This document shows, piece after piece, positions 1,166-31,431 of a stretch of DNA of 33,043 nucleotides. The notes under the pieces were generated by a model. The model saw only the letters and a program-made list of their open reading frames with translations. It was not told the origin of the DNA and did not search any database. Made by a program: the position numbers and the translations under genes. Positions within the stretch are counted from its first letter, which is position 1; each line of letters starts with the position of its first letter. The DNA lies in assembly GCA_964573245.1 (NCBI GenBank), contig CAZNJA010000013.1, forward strand, positions 1-33,043. Reading direction: 5' to 3'. This stretch comes from an uncultured bacterium. GTDB lineage: Bacteria; CAIJMQ01.

Positions 1166-1316
1166 CCCCGTTAGAGATAAGAAGTATGTGTTTTCCTATG
1201 TCTTAAGGAATGAAAAAATGGCAACTAATATACAGGAACTACCGAGGATTTACGGTCGCCACAGATACTCTCGGCTTTGCCGAGAGGCGAGCAGTGGCGA
1301 CCTATCTCTAACGGGG
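1166..1316. mobile_element. 151-bp MITE-like element (copy 1) inserted at the gspJ prepilin cleavage site
   Basis: Terminal inverted repeats CCCCGTTAGAGATA / TATCTCTAACGGGG; flanking direct repeat TTTA at 1162-1165 and 1317-1320. Confidence 0.9.
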
Positions 1317-1931
1317 TTTACTCTCGTTGAACTTCTCATCGCAATAGCCATTTCCAGTATTATCTTTTTGTCGATTATTTCCACTTACTCTCTGACTTTA
1401 AGAACGGTATCGCAATGGAACGATAGGCAAGAGGATTATTATCTTGCACGAAATATATTTAGGAAAATTTATACTGAAGTATCCTCGCTATATTTTATTT
1501 CCGATTTGCAAGTTGTTTCAACGCAAGAGGAAAAAACCGATTATAGCGGCTTGGAAGGAGACGAAAAAACTTTGAGTTTTTATACTACGGTAAAGTCTTT
1601 GTATTTCCCTAGTACGTGTTTAACGAAAGTTACTTATGAATTCATTGTTGATGAGGAGGGGAAAACACTTCTGATAAGGAAAGAAGAACCCGTAGTGAAT
1701 TTTCCTATTGAAGAAGACCCGTATTTTGAAACACAACCCAGACACAGCAAGTCGTATATCTGGGCCGATAATTTAAAGGATTTCAATTTCCGGTATTCGG
1801 ATGGAGAAGATTGGCATGATAGTTGGGATATTGAACAGACAAGCAAGGTGCTGAAATCTATCAAAATTGAGTTTGTCTCGTCCAACGAAGAGAAGTTTTC
1901 AACGATAATATATTTACCAATGCAGATATGA
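1218..1931 (+). CDS. gspJ: T2SS minor pseudopilin GspJ; original start (ATG 1108) is frameshifted by an inserted element, with a probable restart at ATG 1218 inside the element
   Basis: G|FTLVELLIAIAI; C-terminal FNFRYSDGEDWHDSWD. Removing the element and one TTTA fuses MKKYQFSISNFQLLNAKG|FT to LVELL in frame. Confidence 0.82.
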   Translation: MATNIQELPRIYGRHRYSRLCREASSGDLSLTGFTLVELLIAIAISSIIFLSIISTYSLTLRTVSQWNDRQEDYYLARNIFRKIYTEVSSLYFISDLQVVSTQEEKTDYSGLEGDEKTLSFYTTVKSLYFPSTCLTKVTYEFIVDEEGKTLLIRKEEPVVNFPIEEDPYFETQPRHSKSYIWADNLKDFNFRYSDGEDWHDSWDIEQTSKVLKSIKIEFVSSNEEKFSTIIYLPMQI

Positions 1932-3004
1932 ATAATAACTACAGGTTTTCGCTGTTCGGTTTTCGGTTTTCGGGAAATCATTTTAAAATTTTTCCACCAA
2001 CCACTATCCGGGAACCAATAACCGAAAAAGGTTTTGTGCTGATTTTTACGCTTATTATGATTGCTGTTTTGAGTGCGCTAACAATCGGTTTATCAAGCAA
2101 AATGAATCAAGAAATTTCGCTTTTGGAAAATTCATCCGATTATCTTAAAGCATCGGCGTTGGCTAAAGGAGGAGTCCAGTATGCGCTGGCGGTTCTTGAA
2201 ATGGACGAAGATTTCGAGGTGGATGGGCTGGGTGAGGATTGGGCGGAAGAAACTGTATTGACCTTTGGCGATGAAACTGTGAAAATAAACATAACGGATG
2301 AAAGTGGCAAAATAAATTTAAATTATCTTGATACAAAAAGCGAAAGGGAAAAAACCCTGAGAATCGAGCAAATGCTTGAACTTTGCGACAATATTAGTTT
2401 GGATTATGTTGTCGTTCCCGCTATCATAGACTGGACGGATTCCGATGTGGAAGTTAGCGAAATTTTATCGATAACGGTCGGAGAAAACAAAGGGGCGGAA
2501 AGCGATTATTATGAAGATTTGCCTTTTGCGTATCCATGCAAAAATGCGTCTTTTGATACAGCCGAAGAAATTATGATGGTGAAAGGCGTAGATAAAGATA
2601 ATTATTACGGGGAAAATGGTCTTGAAAATTTTGTTACCGTATTTTCCGGCGGTAAAATAAACATCAATACGGCAAGTGAAAATGTTTTAAAAGCTACGCT
2701 TCGGGCTTCGGTGTCGGCGTCTGAAGAAGAACAACCGGGAAATTTGGAATTGATGGATGATATTGCTGTTGCTTCCATAATGCAGTGGCGGGTTGATAAT
2801 ATGTTTTCCGAAATTCCTCAATTGAGTGAATTTTTCAGCGAGGAGGTTGTGAAAGTAATATCATCTTCCGGGCTTTTTGACGTCAAAAGCAATTTTTTTA
2901 TGGTTACATCATCTGCCCAAGTGGGCAAAATAGAAAAAAACATAATCGCGATTTTGAAGAGAAACCAGTCCGATATAAAAATAAAATATTGGAACGAAAA
3001 CTGA
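1928..3004 (+). CDS. gspK: T2SS minor pseudopilin GspK
   Basis: G|FVLI (no Glu5, as typical of GspK); ITDESGKINLN, AIIDWTD and GKININTAS motifs. Confidence 0.92.
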   Translation: MNNNYRFSLFGFRFSGNHFKIFPPTTIREPITEKGFVLIFTLIMIAVLSALTIGLSSKMNQEISLLENSSDYLKASALAKGGVQYALAVLEMDEDFEVDGLGEDWAEETVLTFGDETVKINITDESGKINLNYLDTKSEREKTLRIEQMLELCDNISLDYVVVPAIIDWTDSDVEVSEILSITVGENKGAESDYYEDLPFAYPCKNASFDTAEEIMMVKGVDKDNYYGENGLENFVTVFSGGKININTASENVLKATLRASVSASEEEQPGNLELMDDIAVASIMQWRVDNMFSEIPQLSEFFSEEVVKVISSSGLFDVKSNFFMVTSSAQVGKIEKNIIAILKRNQSDIKIKYWNEN

Positions 3005-3016
3005 TTAAATAAGCAC

Positions 3017-4480
3017 ATGAAAAAGTTCTTTGCTTTCGAAAAAGACAAAAACAAAATAAAACTCTTGTTGTTCCACATAAAAGAGAATAAAGTTTTTATA
3101 GAAGATTACCGTCAACAGGAAATCGGAATCGAAAGCAATGCTTCCGATGTTATCAAGAAGTTTCTTGCCGATAACAATGCAACGGGATTCAAAACGATTT
3201 GTTTTTTGCCTTTATCCTCTCTTTATTTAAGAAAACTTGCTTTCCCTTATAAGAGAATATCCAAAATAAAAAAGAGCATAAAATTTGCCATAGAGCCGCA
3301 TATTCCCATTCCCGTAGAAACCGCGAAGGTATTTTTTAGGCCGATTTACGTGCAAAACAATAAGCAATTCAATTTTTTCTTGTCAGGCGGCATTGAGGTC
3401 TTGTCGTTTGTTGTTCCCGAAGTTCTTTTAAACGAACAATTGGAACTTATAAATTCTTTAGGTTTAATTTGCAATGAAATTTATCTCGAACCGCTTTCTA
3501 TCTTTAGTTTTTTGATTTCTCGAGTCAAGGCAAAAGAGAATGTGCTATGGCTGTATGTTGGTAGCGATACCACATACATTTTCTCTGTGCTAAACGGTGA
3601 AGAACTTGCCGATTTAAGGCAAATACCGTTTGGCAAAGACGAAATTATGCAGGAAAACAGCGAATTAAAAAGAGAAATAAGCACGATTCTTCTTTCTCAA
3701 ACTCAAACTTCGCAACTTGGTGAAAATAAGGTTTCGGCAATTTATGTCTCGGGCAGGCCCACCATTGAAGATAAGGCGGGCGGGCACGAAATTTGCAGTT
3801 GGCTGGCCGAAACTTTTGATATCCCGACAAAGGCCGTGGAACTCGATAGCATACTATCCGTAACACGTTCCGTTGAGCCTGAAACCAAAGAGGAAATTTC
3901 AAGTTTTACTCCCGACATCATATATGCATCTTTGGCAAAAAGCGGCGATACGATGAATTTCTACCCTCCCGCTTTACAGGACAAGGAAAGGAAAGGTATA
4001 CGTGTTGCCTTTTTTCTCACGTTTTTTATTTTACTTATTATTAGTTTTAAGTTGCAGTTTGAAAGGAATATATACGAAGAAAAATTCAATACTTTGAATT
4101 CGCATATAGAAGAAATTTTCCTGCAGACTTTTCCCGACGCCAGAGATACGAGGACCCCTCTTCTTCAGATGAAAGCAAGAATAAAAGATTTGAGGGAAAG
4201 TTCCTCTAAAACAGATATCGTTTCTTTGAGTCCGCTGGAAGCGTTAAAGGAAATTTCCCGGAATTTGGCTAGCAGTTTGCAGATAGAACTTGACTATTTC
4301 AGGGTAAAAGAAAGTGATGTAACAATTTCAGGGAGGGCTTCTTCGTATGGCGATATAGATAAAATAAAATCGGCTTTGGAAAATTCGCCGCTATTTTCCA
4401 AGGTTGATATAGAATCCGCGCAGACAACGTCTCAAGGAGTAAATTTCAGATTGAAAATTGTCCCTGTTTTAAATAAGTGA
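3017..4480 (+). CDS. gspL: T2SS assembly platform protein GspL (PilM/PilN-like)
   Basis: Cytoplasmic actin-like region, single TM segment, periplasmic PilN-like domain (VTISGRASSYGDIDKIKSALENSPLF); operon position. Confidence 0.8.
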   Translation: MKKFFAFEKDKNKIKLLLFHIKENKVFIEDYRQQEIGIESNASDVIKKFLADNNATGFKTICFLPLSSLYLRKLAFPYKRISKIKKSIKFAIEPHIPIPVETAKVFFRPIYVQNNKQFNFFLSGGIEVLSFVVPEVLLNEQLELINSLGLICNEIYLEPLSIFSFLISRVKAKENVLWLYVGSDTTYIFSVLNGEELADLRQIPFGKDEIMQENSELKREISTILLSQTQTSQLGENKVSAIYVSGRPTIEDKAGGHEICSWLAETFDIPTKAVELDSILSVTRSVEPETKEEISSFTPDIIYASLAKSGDTMNFYPPALQDKERKGIRVAFFLTFFILLIISFKLQFERNIYEEKFNTLNSHIEEIFLQTFPDARDTRTPLLQMKARIKDLRESSSKTDIVSLSPLEALKEISRNLASSLQIELDYFRVKESDVTISGRASSYGDIDKIKSALENSPLFSKVDIESAQTTSQGVNFRLKIVPVLNK

Positions 4481-4492
4481 AAGAAGAAAGAA

Positions 4493-5017
4493 ATGAATAA
4501 AAAATTTGCGCTTTTTACGGGATATGGTATTGCCTTTATTCTCCTGTATTTGTTGTTTTTCATGTTTCCCACATTAAACAGGATAAACGTTTTGAAGAAG
4601 GCGATTCCTCAAAAAGAGCAGGAAGTCAAAGAAATGCAAACGCTTCAGGAAGAATATCTTGCCGCAAAAAAAGAATATGTTCCCGCATCCTCATCAACGC
4701 AGGAAAGCGAAAGCATTTTTTCTTTGGTGGAAAGAATCGCTAAAATGAGAGGTCTTGCGGAAAATATAACTTCTATAAAACCGTTGACTTCGGCTGCTCC
4801 GGTCAGAACGGACTTTTCGTCAAAGGAGGACGGTTTTCAGGAATCGAGTGTGGAAGTTAGGATGATAAATCTTTCCTTACAAAATCTTGTCAATTATTTA
4901 TATACTTTGGAAAATCCTCCTTATAGTTTAGGCATAAAGGATATCCAAATAACTTCTGCCAAAGATAAACTGTCCGTAGAAGTAACTTTTACGGCTTCCA
5001 GATTGGAGAAGAAATGA
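4493..5017 (+). CDS. gspM: T2SS protein GspM
   Basis: N-terminal TM, coiled coil, VEVRMINLSLQNLVNYLYTLE; follows gspL. Confidence 0.8.
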   Translation: MNKKFALFTGYGIAFILLYLLFFMFPTLNRINVLKKAIPQKEQEVKEMQTLQEEYLAAKKEYVPASSSTQESESIFSLVERIAKMRGLAENITSIKPLTSAAPVRTDFSSKEDGFQESSVEVRMINLSLQNLVNYLYTLENPPYSLGIKDIQITSAKDKLSVEVTFTASRLEKK

Positions 5018-5134
5018 AAATCAAGATACTCGATTATAGATGCTTGCAAAAAGTGTAACCAATATCTCACTTTTGTAAAGCGAAGCGTGTATTTCTGGAC
5101 TATAAATCGCGAACCGCAATCGCTGTTTTGCTGT

Positions 5135-5150
5135 TGGCATGTAAATTGCT
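5135..5150 (+). promoter_or_regulatory. Putative sigma-54 (-24/-12) promoter
   Basis: TGGCATG-TAAA-TTGCT versus consensus TGGCACG-N4-TTGCW: one mismatch, correct spacing. Confidence 0.65.
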
Positions 5151-5209
5151 CTTTACCGTATGAGGCAACTTAACATTGATAGGGTTAAAAGTCTTGCAGG
5201 TTTATGTTA

Positions 5210-5238
5210 TTGACAAATAAACACGTTAGTTTTATAAT
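5210..5238 (+). promoter_or_regulatory. Consensus sigma-70 promoter of the secreted-protein cluster
   Basis: TTGACA (5210-5215), 17-bp spacer, TATAAT (5233-5238): perfect consensus. Confidence 0.85.
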
Positions 5239-5277
5239 TCTCGAAACTTGTAGACACTGGATACAGTCTGTAAAAAA

Positions 5278-6042
5278 ATGGAGAGCAAATTCGTGAAGAA
5301 AAAATCATTATTGTTGACTTGTTCTGCTTTGGTTTTTCTTTTTTCATCCGTTTCTTGTGTTTTTGCGGGTAGTGCTTCAACAAAGGAATTGTTTTTCGGT
5401 CCTGTCGTAACGGGGCTGGGAGGGACAAGTCTTGTCGCTTCAAAAACTCAAGGGGAAACAGCCACTCTCAACAAGGCTTCTCTTGCCGCAGGAAAACAGG
5501 AAACTTTGCATTTTAGTTTGGATTTATCCAAGACATCGCTTGAAACTATGAAAAGTAAAGACTATGTGAGCATAGACGGCTTAAAGCCGCACGGCATTCC
5601 CGGCGAACCGCAGGTCCCTTTTCAGTCCTTCGTGCTTACTCTGCCTGCAGACAGCGAAGTTTTGGGAGTAAACGTCAGCGGTGTTGCTTACAGACCGATT
5701 TTCAACAAATTGGATATTGCTTTGGCTCCTATGCCTGTAAGCAAAACTGCGGTTGGAAATGGAGAGCGAACAGGCAAGCCGAATGCAATGCAAGTTATCG
5801 GGCAAACCGCCACCGGCGAAAAAACTGTGAACAAAAATGCACGCGTCAGTAAATGCAATACCTGCGACTCGGACTCTTTTTTCCCGGGCAATTTAGTCTC
5901 TTATATGACAAGCGGAGGCAGCGAAAATCTGCTGGTATTTATCAAATTTTTCCCGATGCAGTATGTCCCCGGTTCAAAACACGCAATATTAATTACTAAC
6001 GCGGATATAACGGTAAACTATCAAATTACAGGTAACGAATGA
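5278..6042 (+). CDS. Secreted stand-alone peptidase C25 (gingipain-type) propeptide protein
   Basis: Signal peptide; GIPGEPQVP...LTLP, FFPG and FFPMQYVP...NADITVNY fit the gingipain propeptide pattern. Start may be GTG 5293 (GGAGAG upstream). Confidence 0.7.
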   Translation: MESKFVKKKSLLLTCSALVFLFSSVSCVFAGSASTKELFFGPVVTGLGGTSLVASKTQGETATLNKASLAAGKQETLHFSLDLSKTSLETMKSKDYVSIDGLKPHGIPGEPQVPFQSFVLTLPADSEVLGVNVSGVAYRPIFNKLDIALAPMPVSKTAVGNGERTGKPNAMQVIGQTATGEKTVNKNARVSKCNTCDSDSFFPGNLVSYMTSGGSENLLVFIKFFPMQYVPGSKHAILITNADITVNYQITGNE

Positions 6043-9686: not shown

Positions 9687-9689
9687 ACT

Positions 9690-14515: not shown

Positions 14516-14528
14516 TTTAAAAATTAGA

Positions 14529-14651
14529 GATACAGGATACTAGATACTGGATGCTCGATACTCGTAAAAACAAAGAAAGGAAATTTCTTTTACGAGAATC
14601 CCCGCCTGCTGAATCTTAGCGGGCAGGCAGAATCTAGCATCGAGAATCAAG
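14529..14651. repeat. Inverted heptamer array (GATACTN units) with a nested GC-rich hairpin
   Basis: GATACAG GATACTA GATACTG GATGCTC GATACTC followed by complementary-strand units CGAGAAT..CTAGCAT CGAGAAT; hairpin 14601-14628 flanked by AGAATC direct repeats. Confidence 0.75.
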
Positions 14652-15471: not shown

Positions 15472-18276
15472 TTATTTTTTAAGAGCAACTATTCTATCAC
15501 ATCTTGGGCAAAGTTGGCTTATTTTGTCTATTTTTTTATCCCATTTCCAACATCTTGCGCATTTTTCACCCGGCGCTTTTTTGATTTCAATTCTTGCCCC
15601 GTTAGAAATAAGTTCCGACGAAATGTCGGAACTACCCGCCATTGTATCAGTGGCGGGATTTCTAATGGGGTTTATTTCAACATTTGAAACTATAAAAATA
15701 GTTGCCAAATCTTCTTTGGGTATACCTAGAGATTTTATGTATGAATCTTTTGTGCGCAGAATTACTTCTGCTTCCAAAGAGCCGCCTATTATTTGTTTTT
15801 GGCGCGCTTCTTCAAGGTATTTCTGAACGGTTTCTCTCAAGGCGAATATTTTTTGCCATTTTTGCTCTAATGCTTCGTCTATTTCTTGTTCATCGGTTAG
15901 ATTCGTCAAAAATACGGACTTTTCTTCGAAATCGCAGTTTTGCCATATTTCTTCTGCCGTAAAAGACATAAATGGCGCTATAAGTTGGGTCAGTGTTCTG
16001 AGAATGAAGTGCATGACTGTTTGAGCCGAACACCTTTCGGCAGAATCGGCTGGCAAAATATACAAGCGGTCTTTTAAAATGTCCAAATAAGTCGAACTCA
16101 TATCAACATTTGAAAATTGATAGAGCAACTGGTACGCTTTTATAAACTGAAAATTTTTATACGCCTGTCTTACATCTTTTAATAGCATAAGGCATTTGTT
16201 GTATGCCCACTTGTCAATTTCTAACCATTTATCCCGCGTAACTGCGTTTTGGGGATATTTAAAATCGTAGAGGTTCCCCAGTATAAATCTGGCGGTGTTT
16301 CGAATCTTTCTGTATGCTTCAACACATCGTTTTAGTATCTCTTCGCCGATTCTTATATCGTTTTCCCAGTCCGAAGACACAGCCCATAATCTTAAAATAT
16401 CCGCGCCGTAACTGTTAACGATAACCTGAGGATTAGTAACGTTTCCCATTGATTTGGACATTTTCTTGCCTTCGCTGTCGACTACGAACCCGTGTGTAAG
16501 AACTGTTTTGTATGGCGGTCCGTCGAATAAAGCAACTGATGTAAGTAGCGATGTTTGGAACCAGCCTCTATGCTGGTCGCTTCCTTCCAAATATAAATCA
16601 GCGGGCCAGTCTAACTGTTTGGAATCTTTTAAGACCGCAATGTGGGAGATGCCTGAATCCAGCCACACGTCAAGTATGTCTTTTTCTTTTCTAAAACCCT
16701 TAGTATTTTTGCATTTTGGACATGCGAAATCTTTCGGCAGGAATTTTTCCACTTCGTACTTAAACCATGCATCTGCTCCTTCTTTTGCGACAGTGTCCCT
16801 GACATTTTCCATTACGCGGCTGTTGAGAATTTCCACGCCGCATTTTTCGCAGTAAACTGCGGGTATTCCAACTCCCCATAATCTTTGCCGTGAAAGGCAC
16901 CAGTCAGGGCGGGTCTTTAACATTCCCTCTATTCGGTTTATGGAAATTCCAGGAGCCCATTGAACCTGTTTAACTTTTTCCAGAGCCCGTTGTCTTAAAT
17001 TTTTTCTGTCAACACCTATAAACCATTGTTTGCACGCTCTGAAAATTACGGGTTTTTTGCATCTCCAGCAGTGAGGATAAGAATGCTCTAATTTATCGCT
17101 TTTTAACAGAAGTCCTGTTTTGTCTAATAATTCCACAATGTAATCGTTGGCTTTAAAAACCTGTTTCCCGGTAAGTTCACCAACTTCGTCGGTAAAAAGC
17201 CCTTTTTCGTTTACAGGAGAGAAAATCGGCAGTTTATATTTTATTCCCGTAAGGTAATCTTCTTGCCCATGTCCGGGCGCTGTATGGACACAGCCGGTTC
17301 CTTCCTCCAAACTTATATAATTTGCGGTTACAGTTATGCCTTTCTTGTTGAAAAGCGGGTGCTTGTATTCCAATCCTTCTAGTTCTTTTCCTTTATTTGT
17401 TTTTGTGATTTTGTAGTCGCTGATTCCCAATTGTTCCATTACGGTTTTTACCAAATCCTTCGCTATAAGCCATGTTTCCGAATTTTTGATTTTTGATATT
17501 TTATTTTTTATTTTTACATCTACCCATGCGTAATCATATTCAGGATGCAAGGCAACCGCCAAGTTCGCGGGTATAGTCCACGGCGTTGTTGTCCATATAA
17601 TCACGAATTTGTTTTTTTCTTTTGTTAAAGGAAATTTTACCCAAATGGAGGGTGAGATATGCGGCGCATATTCTACTTCTGCTTCGGCTAAAGCGGTTTC
17701 GCAGGAAATGCACCAGTAAATAGGTTTTTTATCAAGATATACATAACCCTTTTTGGTAAGTTCTCTGAAAGCATCAATTATTTTACTTTCATAATCATAA
17801 CTCATGGTTATATATGGGTTGTCCCAATCCGCCAAAACTCCCAATCGCTTGAATTGTGTTCTTTGCCTGTCTACATAACTTTGAGCATATTCTCTTGCTT
17901 TTTTTCTAAATTCCAATATATCTATTTCTTCTTTTCTTTTGATATCCAGTTTTTTAAACAGTTGCAGTTCAACCGGCAGTCCGTGACAATCCCATCCTGG
18001 GGTAAAAGGAGTGGAATATCCTTCTAAACTTTTATATTTAATTACTATATCTTTAAGAATTTTGTTCATGGATTGGCCAAGATGAATGTCTCCGTTGGCA
18101 TAAGGGGGGCCATCATGAAGAATGTACTTTTTATTACTCTTGGAAAGCATCTTTTTATAGATGTCGTTCTCTTCCCAAAATTTTAAAGTGGCGGGTTCTT
18201 TTTGAGGCAAATTTGCCTTCATTTGGAACTTGGTTTTGGGAAGGTTTAGCGTGTGAGAATAATCTTTCTTTTCCAT
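15472..18276 (-). CDS. ileS: Isoleucyl-tRNA synthetase (type 1)
   Basis: HDGPPYANGDIHLGQ, GWDCHGLP, WTTTPWTIP, GSDQHRGWF, KMSKS, C-terminal CARCW...CPRC zinc finger. Confidence 0.98.
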   Translation of the reverse strand: MEKKDYSHTLNLPKTKFQMKANLPQKEPATLKFWEENDIYKKMLSKSNKKYILHDGPPYANGDIHLGQSMNKILKDIVIKYKSLEGYSTPFTPGWDCHGLPVELQLFKKLDIKRKEEIDILEFRKKAREYAQSYVDRQRTQFKRLGVLADWDNPYITMSYDYESKIIDAFRELTKKGYVYLDKKPIYWCISCETALAEAEVEYAPHISPSIWVKFPLTKEKNKFVIIWTTTPWTIPANLAVALHPEYDYAWVDVKIKNKISKIKNSETWLIAKDLVKTVMEQLGISDYKITKTNKGKELEGLEYKHPLFNKKGITVTANYISLEEGTGCVHTAPGHGQEDYLTGIKYKLPIFSPVNEKGLFTDEVGELTGKQVFKANDYIVELLDKTGLLLKSDKLEHSYPHCWRCKKPVIFRACKQWFIGVDRKNLRQRALEKVKQVQWAPGISINRIEGMLKTRPDWCLSRQRLWGVGIPAVYCEKCGVEILNSRVMENVRDTVAKEGADAWFKYEVEKFLPKDFACPKCKNTKGFRKEKDILDVWLDSGISHIAVLKDSKQLDWPADLYLEGSDQHRGWFQTSLLTSVALFDGPPYKTVLTHGFVVDSEGKKMSKSMGNVTNPQVIVNSYGADILRLWAVSSDWENDIRIGEEILKRCVEAYRKIRNTARFILGNLYDFKYPQNAVTRDKWLEIDKWAYNKCLMLLKDVRQAYKNFQFIKAYQLLYQFSNVDMSSTYLDILKDRLYILPADSAERCSAQTVMHFILRTLTQLIAPFMSFTAEEIWQNCDFEEKSVFLTNLTDEQEIDEALEQKWQKIFALRETVQKYLEEARQKQIIGGSLEAEVILRTKDSYIKSLGIPKEDLATIFIVSNVEINPIRNPATDTMAGSSDISSELISNGARIEIKKAPGEKCARCWKWDKKIDKISQLCPRCDRIVALKK
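15597..15670. mobile_element. 74-bp degenerate MITE-like element (copy 2), in frame within ileS
   Basis: CCCCGTTAGAAAT / ATTTCTAATGGGG termini; interior is two hairpins; flanks CTTG/TTTA are only a partial duplication. Confidence 0.8.
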
Positions 18277-21536: not shown

Positions 21537-21537
21537 G

Positions 21538-22704: not shown

Positions 22705-22721
22705 TTATGGAGTGAAAATTT

Positions 22722-24804: not shown

Positions 24805-24809
24805 GCTTT

Positions 24810-24940: not shown

Positions 24941-25003
24941 CTGCCTTTTGAATTCTAATATTGTTGTATTTAAGTATTTATGTTGCTCAATGTGATAAAA
25001 AGA

Positions 25004-25885: not shown

Positions 25886-25967
25886 GTTAAATTGTGATTA
25901 CACCGATTAAAAATTAGTAATCTGTGTAATCTTGCGTTTTCTTTAATCGCTGTAATCGTTTTATTTT

Positions 25968-26606
25968 TTATAATAAATATGGATTCTCTCTTTTTTCTTT
26001 GCCGATTGTTGTGGGGCTGCCATGCCCCGGATAAACAATACAATCATCAGGCAGTGTCAATAGTTTATCTTTTATACTTTTTATAAGCAGATTATAATCT
26101 GCCAAAGGAAAACTTGTGTTTCCTATGCTTCCTGAAAAAAGCGCGTCTCCGGTAAAAACGCTATTATTTATAACGATTGATATCCCGCCTGGCGTGTGTC
26201 CCGGAGTATGGAGGATATCTGCTTTCAGGTTGCCTATCTTTAATTGCAAGCCGTTATGCAGCACTATATCAGGATTTGGAAAGGGCAAAAATTCGTCTTG
26301 TGAGCCGGGCGGCGCAAAATCGGACAGATTAAGCGAAGAGTCTTTTAAAAATTTAATATCCTTCTCATGCATGCAAATTTGTACGTTTTCTAACATTTCT
26401 TTTAGGTATTTGTTTGCTCCTATGTGGTCTATATGAGCGTGAGTGTTGATGATGTATTTAATATTTAAATTCTTTTTATTGGTAAGTTTAAGGATTTTAT
26501 CCGCTTCTGCGCCCGGGTCTATGACCAGCCCTTGGTTGGTTTGTTTGCACCCGACTAAATAACAATTTGTTTCTGCAGGGCCGACTATCAGTTTTTCCAG
26601 TATCAT
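25968..26606 (-). CDS. MBL-fold metallo-hydrolase (glyoxalase II/YcbL-like)
   Basis: THAHIDHIG, HTPGHTPGG, FTGD, YPGHG..TTIG.EK..NP. Confidence 0.92.
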   Translation of the reverse strand: MILEKLIVGPAETNCYLVGCKQTNQGLVIDPGAEADKILKLTNKKNLNIKYIINTHAHIDHIGANKYLKEMLENVQICMHEKDIKFLKDSSLNLSDFAPPGSQDEFLPFPNPDIVLHNGLQLKIGNLKADILHTPGHTPGGISIVINNSVFTGDALFSGSIGNTSFPLADYNLLIKSIKDKLLTLPDDCIVYPGHGSPTTIGKEKRENPYLL

Positions 26607-26666
26607 TTGGTTAATTTTATCACTTATTGAATGAGAATATGAAGTGTGGGAAAATAATAAATAATA

Positions 26667-26750
26667 GATGCTGGATTCTAGATACTTGATACTGGATTCT
26701 CGTCAGTAAATCTAATTGTTGTTACCAGCATCTAGTATCGGGCATCCAGT
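26667..26750. repeat. Inverted heptamer array (GATACTN units)
   Basis: GATGCTG GATTCTA GATACTT GATACTG GATTCTC ... CCAGCAT CTAGTAT CGGGCAT CCAGT; same family as 14529-14651. Confidence 0.8.
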
Positions 26751-26774
26751 GCTTTTTTTACATTTTATTAAACA

Positions 26775-27524
26775 ATGCCTAATTATAAATTAACAATTGA
26801 ATACGAGGGAACTAATTATCATGGCTGGCAAAGGCAAAAGTCGAAAATTACCGTTCAGGGGGTAATCGAGCAAACGCTTGAAAAAATCTTTAAGCAAAAA
26901 ATCACTTTGATAGGGCAAGGGAGACTCGATGCCGGAGCGCATGCTTTAGGACAAGTCGCACACTTTAAAGTAACGAAAGATTTCAATCCTCTTAATTTAA
27001 AAAGAGCGTTGAATGGACTGCTTCCTTCGGATATACGGATTAAAAATACTCAAAAGGCGGATGACAAATTCCACGCTCGCTACTTAGCAAAAACGAGACA
27101 TTACAAATATATTGTTTATAACGGCGAACCATCTGTATGGTTGAGGAAATTCGCCTATTTTTACCCTTATGAATTAAATATCAGCAAAATACAAAAAGGG
27201 GCAAAATATTTGCTTGACAAGCATGATTTTTCCTGCTTCCAGTCCACTGGTAGCCCTGTTAAAAGCCCGATTAAAACCATAAAATCAATAAAAATAAAAA
27301 AAGAAAATTTGATTTTTCCGGGTAAAATCGCTGTTATAAGATTTGATATAAAAGCGGACGCTTTTCTTTATAGAATGGTCAGAAACATAGTCGGGACGTT
27401 ACTAGAAATCGGCAGGGGTAAGATTCCGCCCGAAGAAATCAGGAAAATCTTAAAAGGCAAAGCGAAAAGAAAATCGCAAGTCGTCTCTGCATGTGGATTG
27501 TATCTGGTCGGTGTGGAATATTAA
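26775..27524 (+). CDS. truA: tRNA pseudouridine(38-40) synthase
   Basis: YEGTNYHGWQRQ, GRLDAGAHA (catalytic Asp), FHARY, AFLYRMVRNIVG. Confidence 0.96.
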   Translation: MPNYKLTIEYEGTNYHGWQRQKSKITVQGVIEQTLEKIFKQKITLIGQGRLDAGAHALGQVAHFKVTKDFNPLNLKRALNGLLPSDIRIKNTQKADDKFHARYLAKTRHYKYIVYNGEPSVWLRKFAYFYPYELNISKIQKGAKYLLDKHDFSCFQSTGSPVKSPIKTIKSIKIKKENLIFPGKIAVIRFDIKADAFLYRMVRNIVGTLLEIGRGKIPPEEIRKILKGKAKRKSQVVSACGLYLVGVEY

Positions 27525-27603
27525 GAGAATACAATAAATTATGTTATCATTTGTTTGTTTTTTAAAAAGAATAAGAAAATCCGCAAAATAAATAGGAGAG
27601 ATA

Positions 27604-27766
27604 ATGGAGCATTCGGATTTTGTTCACCCCGTTAGAGTTCGTCCCGATACATTATCGGGACGTCAGAAATGCTATTTGCTTTTTAGGTTTATAGCAGCTG
27701 GCAAGCTTTTTAAGATAAACGCGGTGTGCGCTTCTTATCTCTAACGGGGTTCATTTGCATGCTTAG
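27604..27766 (+). pseudogene. Abortive duplicate of the dnaE 5' end, interrupted by an element
   Basis: AGGAGA ribosome-binding site, then ATGGAGCATTCGGATTTTGTTCA; with the element removed it reads MEHSDFVHLHA* versus dnaE MEHSDFVHLHV. Confidence 0.75.
27627..27749. mobile_element. 123-bp MITE-like element (copy 3)
   Basis: CCCCGTTAGAG / CTCTAACGGGG termini; direct repeat TTCA at 27623-27626 and 27750-27753. Confidence 0.9.
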
Positions 27767-27806
27767 TTAGATAGAATATATAAGTAAATGTAAGCAAGGA
27801 GAAACG

Positions 27807-30800
27807 ATGGAACATTCTGATTTTGTTCACCTGCATGTTCATACAGGTTATTCGCTTTTGGACGGGATGTGCCGCATTCCTGATTTGGTTAAAAAAGCCA
27901 AAGAATATAAGATGCCGGCTCTTGCAATAACCGACCACGGGAATATGTTCGGAGCTATAGAATTTTATAATGTGGCTATGTCCGAAGGAATCAAGCCGAT
28001 TGTGGGAAGTGAAATGTATTTGGCTCCCAAAAGCAGGAAAGAGAAAAAAGTAGAACGCGGCGAAACGCTTTATTATCATATGACTTTTTTGTGTAAGGAC
28101 GAAAAAGGTTATAAGAATTTAATGCAGCTAAGTTCCATCGGCTATTTGGAAGGATTTTATTACAGACCTAGAATAGACAAGGAAATTTTAAGTGAATATT
28201 CGCAAGGTTTGATTAGTCTTTCGGGGTGTCTTAAAGGCGAAATACCCCAAAAAATATTACAGGATAAGCAAGAGGAAGCGTCACGGATAGCGGGACAATA
28301 TCAGGAAATTTTTGGCAAAGGCAATTTTTATTTAGAACTTATGGATTTGTTTTTGCCCGAGCAGAAAAAAGTCAACGAAGGTTTGCTAAAGATTTCAAAG
28401 CAATTGGATATTCCTTTGGTTGTGACTAATGATGTACATTATTTACTGAAGGAACATGCGATTGCGCACGATGCCTTATTGTGTATCCAGACAGGAGCTG
28501 TTCTTCAAGAAGAAAACAGGTTGAAGTTCAAGACAGAGGAATTCTATTTTAAATCACCGCAGGAAATGAAGAAAATGTTTGCCGATTATCCTGAAACTTG
28601 GGAAAACACTATTGAAATTACCGAAAAGTGTAATTTGCAGTTGGAATTCGGGAAATTTCACTTGCCGCATTTTCCAGTTCCGGAGGGCGAAACTTTGGAT
28701 TCACGTCTTGAAAAACTCTGTTACGAGGGCTTAAAAGAAAAACTTCCCGATACAGACGAAAAAGTAAAAGAAAGATTGAAACATGAATTATCGGTTATAA
28801 AAAATATGGGTTTTTCTAGTTATTTTTTGATTGTTAACGATTTTATAAATTTCGCTCGTTCTCAAAAGATTGCAGTTGGTCCCGGAAGAGGCTCCACCGC
28901 CGGAAGTTTGGTAGCTTTTTGTTTAGGCATTACGGAAATAAATCCTTTGAAATACGGTTTATTTTTCGAAAGGTTTCTTAATCCCGGAAGAAAAAAAATG
29001 CCGGATATAGATATTGATTTCAGTGATGTGAGAAGAGGCGAAGTCATAAATTATGTTTCCAACAAATACGGGAAGGATAAAGTCACTCAAATTATTACGT
29101 TTGGAACGATGGCGGCAAGAGCGGTGATAAGAGATGTGGGTCGGGTTTTGGATATGCCTTACAGCGAAGTTGACCAGATTGCAAAAAGGATTCCTTTGCT
29201 TGGGCATTTCACATTAGAAGAAGCCGTTAAAAAAGATAGTGAGTTAAAAATTTTTCAGGATAAATATCCCGCACTTTTCGAAATATCCAAAACTTTGGAA
29301 GGACTTCCGCGTCACGCTTCTACACATGCGGCTGGGGTTGTAATAGCAAGGGAACCATTGACCAAATACACGCCGCTTTATCAAGTGAGCGAGGGTGAAA
29401 TCCTGACTCAATACCCGATGGAGATTCTGGATAAAATCGGGCTTTTAAAAATGGATTTGCTGGGGTTGAAGACACTTTCTTTATTGGATAACGCGCTCGA
29501 AATAATCAAGGCCACAAAAGGAAAAGAGATAGATTTGGTGAATTTGCCGTTGGATGATTCCGCGACATATAAACTTTTGCAGGCGGCGAAGACTATCGGC
29601 ATTTTCCAGCTGGAAAGCGAGGGCATGAGGGAACTTATAAAGAAAATGCGTCCCGACAGTTTCAAGGATTTGATAGCACTTTTGGCTTTATATCGCCCTG
29701 GTCCTTTGGGAGGCGGACAAGTGGATTTGTTTATCAAAAGGAAGTCTGGCAAAGAAGCAATCGAATATCCTCATCCTTTATTAAATAAAATATTGGAAGA
29801 GACCTACGGGATTATTCTCTATCAGGAACAGGTTATGCAGATAGCTTCGGAAATCGCTAATTTTTCGTTGGCAGATGCGGACGATCTAAGAGGCGCGATG
29901 GGGAAGAAAATTCCGGAAATTATGGACGAAAAAAGGGCTCAATTTATAAAAGGCGCGAAAAAGAATGGGATTTCAGAATCCAAAGCGAATAAAATTTTCG
30001 ATTATATGGCATATTTTGCGGGTTATGGATTTAATAAAGCCCATAGCACTGCTTATGCCTTTGTGTCTTATCGGACGGCGTATCTTAAAGCTAATTTCCC
30101 TCTGGAATTTATGGCGGCGCTTCTAAATTCTGAAAAAGCGAACAGAGACAAAATGGCTATTATTATGAATGAGTGTAACGAAATGGGCATAAAAGTTTTT
30201 CGGCCGGATATAAACGAAAGTTCTATTGATTTTACCGTTGTAGGAGACAGTATAAGATTCGGGCTATTAGCGGTTAAAAATGTGGGAGAGCAAGCCGTTC
30301 GGGATATCATTAGGACGAGAGAAGAAAAAGGAAAATTCGTTTCGCTGACAGATTTTATAGAGAGGATTGATTCGCGAAAAGTTACGAAAAAAGTCATAGA
30401 GAGCTTGATAAAATGCGGTGCTTTCGATTGTTTGGATAAAAACCGTGCTTATTTAATCAGTGTGTTGCAAAAAGGTCTTAATAATAGGTATGGCAAGAAA
30501 ATAGGTCAGATTGCTCTTTTTTCGGCTTTGCCAAACAAGACAGCAGAAGAAGAGGTTAATATCCCACAATGGAGCAAATCCGATATTTTACAGTTCGAAA
30601 AAGAGCTTTTGGGGTTTTATTTGACGGGACACCCTTTGGCTAAATATGAAAAGTTGCTTGAAAAATTTACTAACAGCGATACTGCTGCTTTGTCGAAACT
30701 TAACGTTCCTAAAAACGTAAAGATTGCCGGAGTAATAAGCAATGTCAAGAAAAAATTCACTAAACGAGAAGGCAAGAGAATGGCTATATTTAAATTGGAA

Positions 30801-31256
30801 GATTTGAAAGGAAGTATAGAGGTCATATTATTCCCGGACGCTTTTGAGAAGAGGAAAAATGATATAGAAAACGGTGCCGAAGTAATAGTCGAAGGCAGAT
30901 TAGAAACAAACGGCGACGCATCCAAAATAATAGCTTCTTCCTTAAAATCTATTGCTAAAGTCATAAATCAAACGCAAACCAATTCGCAATTACCGAAATC
31001 TCCGAAAATAAAACGAGCGGTGCACATATACATAAACGAATCCTATACAAACGAGCATGTTTTGGATAATTTGCAACATCTTTTGCGTGTTTCAAGAGGA
31101 GAAAGCAAAGTGTATTTTCACATACGCGAAGGTTCTAAGGAAACAGTCCTTTTAGCGGGGAATTATACGGAAGTGAATCCTGATAGACTTCCTTTGGATA
31201 AAATTGAAGGAATTTTGGGTAAAGGAACAGTCTCCGTAATTCAGGAAGAGGAATAA
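27807..31256 (+). CDS. dnaE: DNA polymerase III alpha subunit
   Basis: PHP domain HLHVHTGYSLLDG, GPGRGS, PDIDIDF, YGFNKAHS, C-terminal OB fold; no intein-sized insertion. Confidence 0.98.
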   Translation: MEHSDFVHLHVHTGYSLLDGMCRIPDLVKKAKEYKMPALAITDHGNMFGAIEFYNVAMSEGIKPIVGSEMYLAPKSRKEKKVERGETLYYHMTFLCKDEKGYKNLMQLSSIGYLEGFYYRPRIDKEILSEYSQGLISLSGCLKGEIPQKILQDKQEEASRIAGQYQEIFGKGNFYLELMDLFLPEQKKVNEGLLKISKQLDIPLVVTNDVHYLLKEHAIAHDALLCIQTGAVLQEENRLKFKTEEFYFKSPQEMKKMFADYPETWENTIEITEKCNLQLEFGKFHLPHFPVPEGETLDSRLEKLCYEGLKEKLPDTDEKVKERLKHELSVIKNMGFSSYFLIVNDFINFARSQKIAVGPGRGSTAGSLVAFCLGITEINPLKYGLFFERFLNPGRKKMPDIDIDFSDVRRGEVINYVSNKYGKDKVTQIITFGTMAARAVIRDVGRVLDMPYSEVDQIAKRIPLLGHFTLEEAVKKDSELKIFQDKYPALFEISKTLEGLPRHASTHAAGVVIAREPLTKYTPLYQVSEGEILTQYPMEILDKIGLLKMDLLGLKTLSLLDNALEIIKATKGKEIDLVNLPLDDSATYKLLQAAKTIGIFQLESEGMRELIKKMRPDSFKDLIALLALYRPGPLGGGQVDLFIKRKSGKEAIEYPHPLLNKILEETYGIILYQEQVMQIASEIANFSLADADDLRGAMGKKIPEIMDEKRAQFIKGAKKNGISESKANKIFDYMAYFAGYGFNKAHSTAYAFVSYRTAYLKANFPLEFMAALLNSEKANRDKMAIIMNECNEMGIKVFRPDINESSIDFTVVGDSIRFGLLAVKNVGEQAVRDIIRTREEKGKFVSLTDFIERIDSRKVTKKVIESLIKCGAFDCLDKNRAYLISVLQKGLNNRYGKKIGQIALFSALPNKTAEEEVNIPQWSKSDILQFEKELLGFYLTGHPLAKYEKLLEKFTNSDTAALSKLNVPKNVKIAGVISNVKKKFTKREGKRMAIFKLEDLKGSIEVILFPDAFEKRKNDIENGAEVIVEGRLETNGDASKIIASSLKSIAKVINQTQTNSQLPKSPKIKRAVHIYINESYTNEHVLDNLQHLLRVSRGESKVYFHIREGSKETVLLAGNYTEVNPDRLPLDKIEGILGKGTVSVIQEEE

Positions 31257-31305
31257 TGAAAGTTTATAGTTGAATGTTTAGACTGAAAATCTCTGGCAGG
31301 GTTTA

Positions 31306-31431
31306 CCCCGTTAGAGATTATGATATAACAAAATGTTTAACTGTAAACAATATTGTAAAAGCTAATGGTTAGGAAGAGCTACTCCCAACTAATTACGTTT
31401 CGATGTCATATTGAAACTATCTCTAACGGGG
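31306..31431. mobile_element. 126-bp MITE-like element (copy 4), intergenic
   Basis: CCCCGTTAGAGAT / ATCTCTAACGGGG termini; direct repeat TTTA at 31302-31305 and 31432-31435. Confidence 0.9.

What the first reader, a model, noticed from the sequence alone, without database searches (positions are those of the whole stretch)
1166..31431. Family of tiny inverted-repeat elements with 4-bp target duplications and largely unrelated interiors
Seen: four elements (1166-1316, 15597-15670, 27627-27749, 31306-31431; 151, 74, 123 and 126 bp) share CCCCGTTAGA(G/A) ... (C/T)TCTAA(C/T)GGGG ends. Three have perfect 4-bp flanking duplications (TTTA, TTCA, TTTA). The left 19 bp of the gspJ copy (CCCCGTTAGAGATAAGAAG) equal the reverse complement of the right end of the 27627 copy, but I cannot align the interiors. 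No transposase is in the window. Established: MITE copies normally share their interior. Inference: a high-copy, target-biased (TTYA) non-autonomous element in which only the ends are conserved, with interiors either captured or freely drifting, mobilised in trans by an unknown enzyme.
Basis: partly seen in the sequence, partly recalled or inferred. Interest (0 to 1): 0.85.

Follow-up and report, generated by a model that had tools for sequence, protein, structure and literature searches.

The report
Mini-elements from a tiny GIY-YIG transposon
The four small inverted-repeat sequences are stripped-down copies of a roughly 280-base mobile element whose only gene encodes an 86-residue DNA-cutting enzyme; the family is scattered through many uncultivated bacterial phyla and often sits, in frame, inside working genes.

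Summary
Observation confirmed. The four elements are at the stated coordinates. Three have perfect 4-bp flanking repeats. Related genomes show empty sites at all four positions.

These are non-autonomous, target-biased mobile elements: 52 copies in this 1.46-Mb draft genome, and the same ends recur in Patescibacteria, Omnitrophota, Planctomycetota, Desulfobacterota and other phyla.

The interiors are not unrelated. The gspJ copy still holds the first ~23 codons of a GIY-YIG nuclease gene. The "unknown enzyme" now has a strong candidate: elements of 265-295 bp with the same ends enclose one ~86-codon GIY-YIG (UPF0213/Slx1-like) gene. One lies in a same-genus genome, one in a distant genome, and at least 71 distinct ones in metagenome contigs. 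The last residues of that protein are encoded by the right end itself.

No DDE, piggyBac/IS1380 or HUH transposase goes with the ends. In this genome 21 of 52 copies are read through inside open frames, and 20 of those 21 add whole codons. Four of 18 prepilin-type genes carry a copy exactly at the leader-cleavage site.

How the elements move is inferred, not shown. My searches found no published description. The scan had already noted a related GIY-YIG-linked family and in-frame palindromes on other DNA.

The parts
1166..1316 (+). Element 1 (151 bp), inserted in the GspJ-like pseudopilin gene right after GGT TTT A, the G|F-T prepilin cleavage site. It is an internal-deletion derivative of a GIY-YIG-coding element.
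   Evidence: Removing the element plus one TTTA restores ..NAKG|FTLVELLIAIA. The orthologue in G004 has a short leader ending SG|FTLLE.
1162..1165 (.). Left copy of the 4-bp duplication TTTA of element 1 (right copy at 1317-1320)
   Evidence: a single TTTA stands at the site in G004.
1186..1255 (+). Remnant of the 5' part of the GIY-YIG gene inside element 1. It reads ..YVLRNEKNGN*YTGTTEDLR and is broken by a stop and frame changes.
   Evidence: BLAST gives 78% identity to the full-length copy G003:C13:10750-10853; alignment A2; G003 sequence. The translation was read by eye.
1254..1302 (+). Subterminal hairpin GGTCGCCAC..GTGGCGACC next to the right end. This module recurs, with compensatory changes, in the 122-131-bp copies.
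1218..1931 (+). Open frame that starts at an ATG inside element 1 (AAGGA lies 8 nt upstream) and runs in frame into the pseudopilin body: M..GDLSLTG|FTLVELL.. It is a possible replacement leader.
   Evidence: N_methyl 23 bits; T2SSJ 21.5 bits, below its cut-off of 28. Whether this frame is used is inferred.
121..134 (+). ACG GGG TTT AC.. at the G|F junction of the upstream pseudopilin gene. Probably the footprint of a lost element end; in G003 this same site holds a full-length GIY-YIG element.
15597..15670 (.). Element 2 (74 bp: inverted ends plus two inner hairpins). It is read through in frame in ileS on the minus strand, between the anticodon-binding domain and the C-terminal CxxC pairs.
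   Evidence: G001, G003 and G004 lack it. G002 has an element at the same site with a different interior.
27627..27749 (.). Element 3 (123 bp) with TTCA duplication (27623-27626 and 27750-27753), inserted in a truncated duplicate of the dnaE 5' end.
   Evidence: G002 has the same copy (85% identity over the region). G003 and G004 have one dnaE start with a single TTCA.
27604..27766 (+). Pseudo-5' end of dnaE (ATG GAG CAT TCG GAT TTT G TTCA | element | TTCA TTTGCATGCTTAG). The real dnaE starts at 27807.
31306..31431 (.). Element 4 (126 bp), intergenic between dnaE and the rnfD-like gene, with TTTA duplication (31302-31305 and 31432-31435).
   Evidence: Empty sites with one TTTA followed by CAAA in G002 and G003; G001 also lacks the element.

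Best explanation
The four sequences are miniature, non-coding derivatives of a very small mobile element. The full-length form is 265-295 bp. It consists of the same 11-14-bp inverted ends (CCCCGTTAGAR.. / ..YTCTAACGGGG), a ribosome-binding site, and one gene of about 86 codons for a GIY-YIG nuclease of the UPF0213/Slx1 branch. The last residues of that protein (..LSLTG or ..NYLTG) are encoded by the right end itself, and its stop codon usually lies in the 4 nt just outside the end.

Shown:
- Short and full-length forms share the ends.
- Element 1 retains the 5' part of the nuclease gene.
- Copies are true insertions at YNNR sites (mostly TTTA or TTCA), often with a 4-bp duplication.
- Inside genes, only insertions that add whole codons have survived.
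- At prepilin genes the end plus duplication (ACG GGG | TTT AC) rebuilds the T-G|F-T cleavage site.

Inferred:
- The nuclease, a relative of structure-selective endonucleases, recognises the hairpin or cruciform made by the inverted ends and nicks at its base.
- It, or a paralogue acting in trans, also opens YNNR targets.
- Host repair or replication copies the element in. The process is strand-polar: on one strand the element always follows a YTNR.
- The 4-mer on the other side is either a second copy of the target 4-mer or a lineage-specific 4-mer that arrives with the element.

The window's genome has no full-length copy. Its 52 copies are therefore either fossils or moved by one of its six small GIY-YIG paralogues.
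For: Full-length copies:
- L075:6919-7199.
- G018:C20:54886-55163.
- G003:C13, 280 bp.
Those stretches hold 124 matches, of which 72 carry a GIY-type ORF in the same layout.
- All 71 of 71 distinct ORFs match Pfam GIY-YIG.
- Catalytic-type positions are invariant in alignment A1: Y3, Y5, Y16, G18, R26 and H30, with E62 in at least 90%.

Link between short and long forms:
- Element 1 matches the G003 full-length copy at 78% over 100 nt and aligns to three full-length copies up to GATTTACGG.

Gene and ends are co-inherited:
- The end variant changes 9 times on a tree built from the first 68 residues, against a mean of 33.1 (minimum 28) with shuffled labels.

Co-occurrence:
- Among 41 related genomes, the five best matches to the element-borne protein (52-72% identity) lie in G018, G003, G002 and G015, all four of which carry the elements. 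The best match in a genome without elements is 44%.

Mobility:
- Empty sites were found for all four window copies and for C7:21676.
- Direct 4-bp flanks number 16/52, 88/160 and 35/124, against 4.4, 11.1 and 8.5 by permutation.

Polarity:
- Flank classes over 336 elements are FF 69, RR 83, FR 70 and RF 2.

Selection:
- 21 of 52 copies are read through, and 20 of those 21 have (length+4) divisible by 3; among the rest the figure is 15 of 31.

Enzyme relatives:
- The A1 profile hits UPF0213 proteins (1zg2, 1ywl) and SLX1 (7cq2, 4xlg).
- Slx1-Slx4 cuts branched DNA, and its family includes YhbQ and YazA (PMC7017083, passages read).
Against: - No experiment or read-level evidence shows the nuclease moving anything. 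The link is architecture, co-inheritance and co-occurrence.
- An 86-residue nuclease cannot join DNA, so most of the pathway must be host-borne and is not identified.
- The window's own genome (93% complete) has no full-length copy. Its best paralogue is 48% identical and is flanked by different ends.
- G001 has elements (12 exact matches) but only a 34%-identical small GIY-YIG gene.
- Small GIY-YIG genes also occur in genomes without the elements.
- 52 of the 124 mid-size matches have no recognisable GIY ORF.
- From recall, not from any call here: GIY-YIG enzymes studied so far leave 1-2-nt 3' overhangs, which does not predict a 4-bp duplication.
- No single model accounts for both the direct-repeat class and the FR class.
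- Contigs of four public runs showed no form in which an element is skipped exactly. They are contigs only, so this says little either way.
Confidence: 0.68

Rival explanations
1. Classical MITEs moved by a DDE transposase of the IS1380/piggyBac kind, encoded elsewhere or not binned. The GIY-YIG gene would be a passenger.
For: The elements have a 4-bp duplication at T-rich YNNR sites and ends that begin CCCC. PMC10813416 (abstract and passages seen) reports for piggyBac a 4-bp TTAA duplication with rare variants such as TAAA, TCAA and TATG, 5' end motifs CCCTC/CCCTT/CCCAT, and IS1380 as its prokaryotic outgroup. Metagenome-assembled genomes often lose insertion sequences.
Against: PF13843 (piggyBac) gave 0 matches in G001-G003, G015 and G018, but it also matched none of the 14 control genomes, so that search is uninformative. 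PF13701 (IS1380) gave 0 matches in G000-G003, G015 and G042-G044, and only a 25-bit fragment in G018. The one good IS1380-like gene, in G041, lacks these ends. PF01609 gave 0 matches in G000, G001, G018 and G042. No pair of ends encloses a transposase: the two long pairs found enclose ribosomal and tRNA-synthetase genes. G042 is a 0.6-Mb genome with about 45 copies and none of these families. TTAA is rare as a duplication (1 of 88).
Confidence: 0.12
2. REP/REPIN-like repeats moved by a RAYT (HUH Y1 transposase), or IS200/IS605-type single-strand elements.
For: The structure is palindromic. Flanks show strand polarity (FR 70 against RF 2). Insertion is next to a tetranucleotide. The genome has one Y1_Tnp hit.
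Against: The Y1_Tnp protein of G000 has no such ends nearby, and by eye its HUH site is degenerate. Y1-like genes do not track the elements: G001 has elements and no Y1 match, while G007, G011, G021, G032 and G033 have Y1 matches and no elements. The Y1 genes in G002 and G018 are not flanked by the ends. Direct 4-bp duplications with empty sites are not a feature of those families (recalled).
Confidence: 0.05
3. The repeats are kept mainly for a host function, such as an RNA or DNA structure, a protein linker or a leader peptide, and are no longer mobile in this lineage.
For: Hairpin stems vary with compensating changes. Several insertions are old and shared across species, with interiors that were replaced while the ends stayed. 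There is no full-length copy in G000. 4 of 18 prepilin genes use the end as the last codons of the leader.
Against: Rfam gave 0 matches in the window at gathering scores. Element 4 is specific to this species. The copies lie in unrelated genes and spacers. This reading does not explain origin or spread and is compatible with the main explanation.
Confidence: 0.15

Closest known systems
Rickettsia palindromic elements (RPEs) and intragenic REP-type repeats (Di Nocera et al. 2013, PMC3733652: listing and abstract seen; RPE facts recalled)
   Same: Short palindromic repeats that insert into protein-coding genes and persist when they keep the frame. Here 21 of 52 copies are read through and 20 of those 21 add whole codons.
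   Different: These elements have sharply conserved 11-nt ends shared across phyla, a 4-bp duplication, and a coding full-length form. From recall, no enzyme has been tied to RPEs. The GTAG/CGTC tags of REPs are absent.
Bacterial MITEs (Correia/NEMIS, RUP, ERIC and others; recalled)
   Same: Inverted ends, target duplication, many non-coding copies, and derivation from a longer coding element by internal deletion.
   Different: The parent carries no transposase of any known class. Its only gene is an ~86-aa GIY-YIG nuclease, and the whole parent is about 280 bp, shorter than any insertion sequence I can recall.
Free-standing and intron-borne GIY-YIG homing endonuclease genes (I-TevI, seg/mob genes of T4; recalled). 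TIGR01453 group I intron endonuclease matches weakly, at 21-29 bits against a cut-off of 56.
   Same: A selfish gene whose only product is a GIY-YIG nuclease, so spread must rely on host repair.
   Different: There is no intron and no long cognate target. Insertion sites are hundreds of unrelated places marked only by a 4-mer. The element has inverted ends, and the protein has no separate DNA-binding domain (86 aa in all).
Slx1 / UPF0213 (YhbQ, YazA) structure-selective nucleases
   Same: These are the nearest solved relatives by profile: 1zg2 at 1.8e-11, 1ywl at 7.6e-7, and SLX1 at 2e-4 to 1e-3. Slx1-Slx4 cuts Y, 5'-flap and fork structures (PMC7017083).
   Different: Those are host repair proteins, not part of a repeat. 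The element-borne protein lacks the PHD/RING finger of Slx1, and its C-terminus is encoded by the element's own end.
piggyBac / IS1380
   Same: 4-bp duplication at T..A sites; ends starting CCC (PMC10813416).
   Different: No DDE/DDD transposase was found with these ends. TTAA is rarely the duplicated 4-mer.
Earlier notes of this scan on other DNA: e1-1061211 (GIY-YIG-linked miniature element at start codons in Patescibacteria), e1-1058451, e1-4727906, e1-3396871
   Same: Palindromic mini-elements of CPR and Omnitrophota, in-frame insertions, and in one note a tiny GIY-YIG gene in the full-length form.
   Different: I did not compare sequences with those notes. The sub-lineage here with TATG flanks and ..KFFF..F C-termini may be the start-codon family of e1-1061211, but this is untested.

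Membership tests
MITE (non-autonomous inverted-repeat element) | Terminal inverted repeats | tested here: met
   11-14 bp perfect or near-perfect ends in all four window copies and in 52 copies across the genome.
MITE (non-autonomous inverted-repeat element) | Target-site duplication, with empty sites in relatives | tested here: met
   Direct 4-bp flanks in 16/52, 88/160 and 35/124 copies, against 4.4, 11.1 and 8.5 expected. Empty sites. A second class without duplication exists.
MITE (non-autonomous inverted-repeat element) | A longer coding element with the same ends from which the short copies derive | tested here: met
   Full-length GIY-YIG copies. Element 1 retains the 5' part of the gene.
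MITE (non-autonomous inverted-repeat element) | The parent encodes a transposase that acts on the ends | not testable with these tools
   The parent encodes only a GIY-YIG nuclease. Its activity on the ends has not been assayed.
piggyBac / IS1380 | DDE/DDD transposase (PF13843 / PF13701) between the ends or in the genome | tested here: not met
   The PF13843 search matched no genome, controls included, so it is uninformative on its own.
piggyBac / IS1380 | 4-bp duplication; ends beginning CC(C) | tested here: met
   compared with the passages of PMC10813416.
REP/REPIN-RAYT and IS200/IS605 | HUH Y1 transposase associated with, or flanked by, the repeats | tested here: not met
Rickettsia palindromic elements | In-frame persistence inside coding genes | tested here: met
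   ileS.
Rickettsia palindromic elements | Sequence homology to RPE families | not tested
   No RPE sequences were fetched.
GIY-YIG homing endonuclease genes | GIY-YIG catalytic domain with conserved Tyr, Tyr-x-Gly, Arg, His and Glu | tested here: met
   71 of 71 match PF01541; invariant columns. Mapping these columns to catalytic residues is from recall.
GIY-YIG homing endonuclease genes | Homing into one long cognate site, usually with an intron or as a free-standing gene between conserved genes | tested here: not met
   Copies lie at many unrelated sites that share only a 4-mer.
Known RNA families (Rfam 15) | Match at gathering score | tested here: not met
   0 matches in the window.

The most novel reading that the evidence does not exclude
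This would be a new class of DNA transposon, and the smallest self-encoded mobile element known, at about 280 bp. Its only protein would be an 86-residue Slx1-like GIY-YIG nuclease that recognises the hairpin formed by the element's own ends. The element would move by a strand-polar route that depends on host repair and uses 4-nt matches at the target. It has spread across Patescibacteria, Omnitrophota, Planctomycetota and Desulfobacterota. It survives inside essential genes as extra in-frame loops, and at prepilin genes it rebuilds the peptidase cleavage site. In G003 the nuclease itself is made as the 'leader' of a pseudopilin.
Probability: 0.45. Interest if true: 0.9.

Novelty: new variant of a known kind. 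Interest (0 to 1): 0.8.

Why it matters
- **A fifth kind of mobility enzyme.** If the nuclease is what moves these elements, a structure-selective GIY-YIG enzyme would join the DDE, HUH, serine and tyrosine enzymes among those that drive transposon-like spread. The lower size limit of an autonomous mobile element would fall to about 0.28 kb.
- **Genome annotation.** The family is abundant in the small genomes of uncultivated phyla. One 0.6-Mb Patescibacteria genome has about 45 copies. The protein search found 5757 clusters at E <= 1e-10, and among the 120 best listed the only names given are 'putative endonuclease' or 'GIY-YIG nuclease family protein'.
- **Effect on host proteins.** The copies add loops to IleRS and other proteins, remodel pseudopilin leaders, and lie next to duplicated gene starts such as dnaE. 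They therefore affect gene calling, protein models and assembly: contigs of G018 end inside copies.
- **A testable function for an orphan family.** The bacterial UPF0213/YhbQ family has solved structures; from recall, its role is not settled. This finding gives it a concrete hypothesis to test.

Tried and rejected
- **RAYT/Y1 transposase.** There is one hit in the genome. It is not near any element end, and Y1 genes do not co-occur with the elements.
- **IS1380, piggyBac and DDE_Tnp_1 families** in element-rich genomes: none goes with the ends. The weak G018 fragment is not a transposase next to ends.
- **Long pairs of ends** as candidate autonomous copies: L101 (3362 bp) and L132 (2365 bp) enclose ordinary genes.
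- **Contig ends of G000**: only C43 ends 191 nt after an element end, and no hidden longer element showed up.
- **Viral contigs**: the 14-mer CCCCGTTAGAGATA gave 81 stretches, about what I estimate chance would give. Only one true element was found (L205, 56 bp, flanks TCTG/TCTG).
- **Rfam** on the window: nothing.
- **Integron attC sites**: considered and dropped. The GTT/AAC boxes are in the opposite order, and the copies are scattered inside genes (by eye; attC consensus recalled).
- **Terminators**: dropped. The TAAA..TTTA flank arrangement a bidirectional terminator would need is the one that is almost never seen (RF 2 of 336).
- **Ribozyme or translational bypass** at the gspJ copy: considered. 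I saw no conserved ribozyme core by eye and there was no Rfam match. Not tested further.
- **Public runs.** Sampled words of the stretch occur in salt-marsh, sediment and marsh metagenome runs. Contigs of four of them showed no joint that skips an element exactly, only cross-mapping of other copies' ends. Contigs drop rare variants, so this says nothing about present mobility.
- **Literature.** Searches for a described bacterial GIY-YIG inverted-repeat element returned nothing relevant in title or abstract. ISfinder, Dfam and paper supplements could not be consulted.


Full report
**1. What is in the window**

The motif CCCCGTTAGAR, with up to one mismatch, occurs 8 times in the window. These 8 matches are the ends of the four elements; 0.64 are expected and none of 100 shuffles reaches 8.

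Three copies have perfect 4-bp direct flanks (TTTA, TTCA, TTTA). Each copy folds on its inverted ends as a single strand, with z from -5.3 to -9.6. Rfam finds nothing in the window at gathering scores.

**2. The family in this genome**

The window is contig C13 of a 1.46-Mb draft genome (110 contigs, 38% G+C, 93% complete). Earlier notes of this scan call it Omnitrophota/Ratteibacteria-like; I did not test that.

The genome holds 52 copies of 29-160 bp with both ends within one mismatch of the 10-mer. The lengths cluster as follows:
- About 30 bp: the ends alone.
- About 50 bp.
- 62-74 bp: the ends plus two inner hairpins, giving a three-way junction.
- 100-106 bp.
- 122-131 bp: an A+T-rich part, then TTTACGG, a hairpin, and the right end.
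- 147-158 bp.

Hairpin stems differ between copies by compensating changes. Positions 11-13 of the two ends always match each other within a copy (GAT/ATC, AAT/ATT, AGT/ACT).

**3. They are insertions**

Orthologous loci in three same-genus genomes (G001-G003) and one same-family genome (G004), at about 70-80% DNA identity, show the following:
- **Element 4** is absent from G001, G002 and G003. G002 and G003 read ..TTTA CAAA.. with a single TTTA.
- **Element 3** lies after GTTCA of a short duplicate of the dnaE start. G003 and G004 have one dnaE start with a single TTCA.
- **Element 2** lies in frame in ileS (Pfam). G001, G003 and G004 lack it. G002 has an element at the same place with TTTA on the left and a different interior.
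- **Element 1** lies after GGT TTT A of a GspJ-like pseudopilin. Removing it plus one TTTA restores ..KG|FTLVELLIAIA. G004 has a short leader. G003 has what looks like a decayed right end (..GGTCGCCGGAACTAACGGGG TTTACT) in frame.

**4. Distribution**

Counts of exact matches (both ends, 20-140 nt apart) in 41 related genomes:

| Genome | Relation | Matches |
|---|---|---|
| G000 | this genome | 28 |
| G001, G002, G003 | same genus | 12, 26, 14 |
| G004 | same family | 0 |
| G010, G015, G018 | distant | 1, 6, 22 |
| 33 others | various | 0 |

The record titles name Patescibacteria groups (Saccharibacteria, Parcubacteria and others), Omnitrophota, Planctomycetota, Deltaproteobacteria/Desulfobacterota, Edwardsbacteria, Stahlbacteria, Thermodesulfovibrionia and more.

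One 0.6-Mb Patescibacteria genome has 44+47 ends. G018 has a uniform 94-bp sub-family, and several of its contigs end inside copies. Viral contigs hold essentially none.

**5. The full-length form**

- L075:6919-7199 is a 281-bp element with the same ends around an 86-codon ORF. The ORF starts about 20 nt after the left end and finishes ..RFLSLTG inside the right end.
- G018:C20:54886-55163 has the same layout.
- So does a 280-bp copy in the same-genus genome G003.

These hold 124 matches, of which 88 have an ORF of at least 60 codons and 72 have the GIY-type N-terminus. Seventy-one distinct ORFs align at 57% mean column identity, with invariant Y3, Y5, Y16, G18, R26 and H30. All 71 match Pfam GIY-YIG.

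The profile's nearest solved relatives are the UPF0213 proteins 1zg2 and 1ywl, then SLX1. NCBIfam gives only a sub-threshold match to group I intron endonucleases. The large protein collection holds 5757 clusters at E <= 1e-10. The best 120 are 81-95% identical, mostly exactly 86 residues long, and named at most 'putative endonuclease' or 'GIY-YIG nuclease family protein'.

**6. Short copies derive from the long form**

The left 90 nt of element 1 match the G003 full-length copy at 78%. They align with three full-length copies through the ribosome-binding site and the first ~23 codons, up to GATTTACGG, where the deletion begins. Read by eye, the remnant translates as ..YVLRNEKNGN*YTGTTEDLR, against MFYTYILKSEKDGGWYTGTTNNLRKRF in G003.

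The TTTACGG + hairpin + TATCTCTAACGGGG module of the 122-131-bp class corresponds to the ..DLRKRF.. and ..KRFLSLTG coding parts. This suggests a deletion between their similar AAGCG(C/T)TTCC stretches (by eye). The 62-74-bp copies look like two such right-end modules placed head to head (by eye).

The interiors are therefore related, but too decayed to align among only four copies.

**7. Gene and ends travel together**

On a tree built from the first 68 residues, which excludes the part encoded by the end, the end variant changes 9 times. With shuffled labels the mean is 33.1 and the minimum 28. Related rows share labels, so this shows co-inheritance as a unit; it does not prove enzyme specificity.

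Among the 41 related genomes, the five best matches to an element-borne protein (72, 64, 52, 52 and 52% identity) lie in four element-carrying genomes. The best in a genome without elements is 44%. G002 and G003 are kin, so these are not four independent cases.

A sister form exists with ends CCCTGTGAAATAA../..TTATTTCACGGGG, flanks TTTA/TGAA and the same layout (G015:C76).

**8. Results against the reading, or unresolved**

- The window's genome has six small GIY-YIG genes (plus a 569-aa frame with a GIY-YIG match in C42, probably UvrC), but none lies between these ends. The closest is 48% identical and is flanked by different CCCC..GGGG ends.
- G001 has elements and only a distant paralogue.
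- 52 of the 124 mid-size matches have no recognisable ORF.
- Nothing here shows catalysis.

**9. Flanks**

- Of 672 flanking 4-mers, 616 are YNNR, against 23% background.
- Direct repeats flank 16/52, 88/160 and 35/124 copies. Permuting the right flanks gives 4.4, 11.1 and 8.5.
- Write F for YTNR and R for YNAR. The (left, right) classes are then FF 69, RR 83, FR 70 and RF 2. Every element thus has, on at least one strand, a YTNR just before its CCCC.
- In ORF-bearing copies the 4-mer after the ORF is TGAA or TAAA in 40 of 71, which supplies the stop codon. (TTTA, TGAA) occurs 11 times and (TTCA, TAAA) 9 times, but the perfect complements occur only 2 and 1 times.
- One clean case is G000:C7:21676. 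Three genomes have the empty site ..AATG TAAA ATT.., and the filled site is ..AATG TTCA [71 bp] TAAA ATT... Here TTCA arrived with the element, TAAA was the target, nothing was duplicated, and 75 bp were added in frame.

I can offer only an outline: insertion next to a 4-mer shared with the target, with the 4-mer on the far side either copied from the target or brought along. I cannot derive both classes from one mechanism.

**10. Life inside genes**

Twenty-one of 52 copies are read through inside long open frames, and 20 of those 21 have (length+4) divisible by three. Among the other 31 the figure is 15.

At orthologous sites the interior can differ between species while the CCCC..GGGG ends stay. 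This is seen at the ileS site and at the C5:31325 site in five genomes.

Of 18 prepilin-type N-termini found by a codon pattern, four carry an element end exactly at G|F. These are the window's GspJ-like gene, C4:23505, C17:24155 and C53:8880. Two more read ACG GGG before TTT AC, including window 121-134. The reason is visible in the sequence: the right end plus TTTA reads ACG GGG TTT AC, that is T-G|F-T.

In G003 a full-length copy sits at this site in the pseudopilin gene upstream of gspJ, and the nuclease ORF runs in frame into the pseudopilin as one 245-aa open frame. Pfam finds the GIY-YIG domain in it but not N_methyl.

In the window the insertion breaks the original frame (155 nt). However, an ATG at 1218 inside the element, with AAGGA upstream, is in frame with the intact downstream gene. 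Whether this start is used is inference.

**11. Rivals**

A DDE enzyme of the IS1380/piggyBac kind fits the 4-bp duplication and the CCC ends (PMC10813416). None was found with these ends. A RAYT or IS200-type enzyme fits the polarity but neither co-occurs with nor flanks the repeats. A purely host-kept structural role cannot be excluded for old copies, but it does not explain spread.

**12. Novelty**

My searches of the held library returned nothing describing a bacterial inverted-repeat element whose only gene is a GIY-YIG nuclease, or its miniature derivatives (titles and abstracts seen). ISfinder, Dfam and paper supplements were not available.

The scan itself has met related things before: e1-1061211, e1-1058451 and e1-4727906 on other DNA, and e1-3396871 in this genome.

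I file the window's copies as a new variant of a known kind (MITE/RPE-like repeats). The parent element may turn out to be a new class.

Noticed in passing
window 27604-27830; L019 (G001:C1:6200-7900); L018 (G003): The first ~33 nt of dnaE are duplicated. The upstream pseudo-copy carries element 3 and the real start follows at 27807. G001 has a longer pseudo-copy (through ..YSLLDG) with a degenerate element, then what read by eye as a small antitoxin/PIN-type toxin gene pair (not run through Pfam), then the real dnaE start. G003 and G004 have a single start. The order of events, duplication first or insertion first, is open.
   Followed up: partly
G000:C1:9950-10400 and G000:C14:13050-13620: Two small GIY-YIG genes without the CCCCGTTAGA ends lie between duplicated halves or copies of tRNA genes. 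In C14 one tRNA copy has a hairpin in place of its middle. They look like nuclease genes that landed in tRNA genes and carried a replacement piece.
   Followed up: no
L381:1024-1758 (G003:C13, minus strand): A 245-aa open frame fuses an intact GIY-YIG nuclease (86 aa, ending LSLTG) directly to a pseudopilin body (FTFLEISLVILVIG..). The prepilin peptidase site would separate the two.
   Followed up: partly
L109:5057-5166 (Bdellovibrionales MAG contig): One copy has a complete tRNA-like gene as its interior between the two ends. It is the only clear case of foreign cargo among the 160 public copies inspected.
   Followed up: no
window 613-664: A hairpin repeat (..TCAGTCCGATGACTCCGAAAGGACGGAGTATACGGACTCTTCGGAG..) at the gspH/I junction matches several loci of G002 at 96-100%. 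It is a different repeat family.
   Followed up: no
window 14528-14651, 25887-25967, 85-115, 17480-17516: Further short repeats are shared with many loci of G001-G003. They include runs of GATACT-like units plus a CCCCGCCTGC..GCGGGCAGG hairpin, TGTAATC-unit runs, and AAATATC heptamer runs before the pseudopilin genes.
   Followed up: no
L010 / L009 (G001:C4, G002:C19, gspJ leader): In G001 and G002 the GspJ-like leader contains another two-hairpin palindrome (CCCCAGAAAATC..GATTTTCGGGG and CCTCGGAATTT..AAATTCCAGAGG) read in frame, giving a 38-residue leader.
   Followed up: no
G000:C12:23859-25168 (L001:1429-2739): A 436-aa protein has an N-terminal IS200-like Y1_Tnp domain whose HUH position reads, by eye, K-V-Y. 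It also has a C-terminal part resembling the neighbouring secreted protein. It is conserved in G003 at 77%.
   Followed up: partly
G015:C76:700-1100 (L383); G000:C27:11380-11800: Sister element types have other ends around homologous nuclease genes: CCCTGTGAAATAA../..TTATTTCACGGGG with flanks TTTA/TGAA in G015, and CCCCACACCTT../..GAAGGTGCGGGG in G000.
   Followed up: partly
G018 contigs C8, C20, C36, C61, C69, C76: Contigs begin or end inside 94-bp copies of the element, so this repeat fragments short-read assemblies.
   Followed up: no
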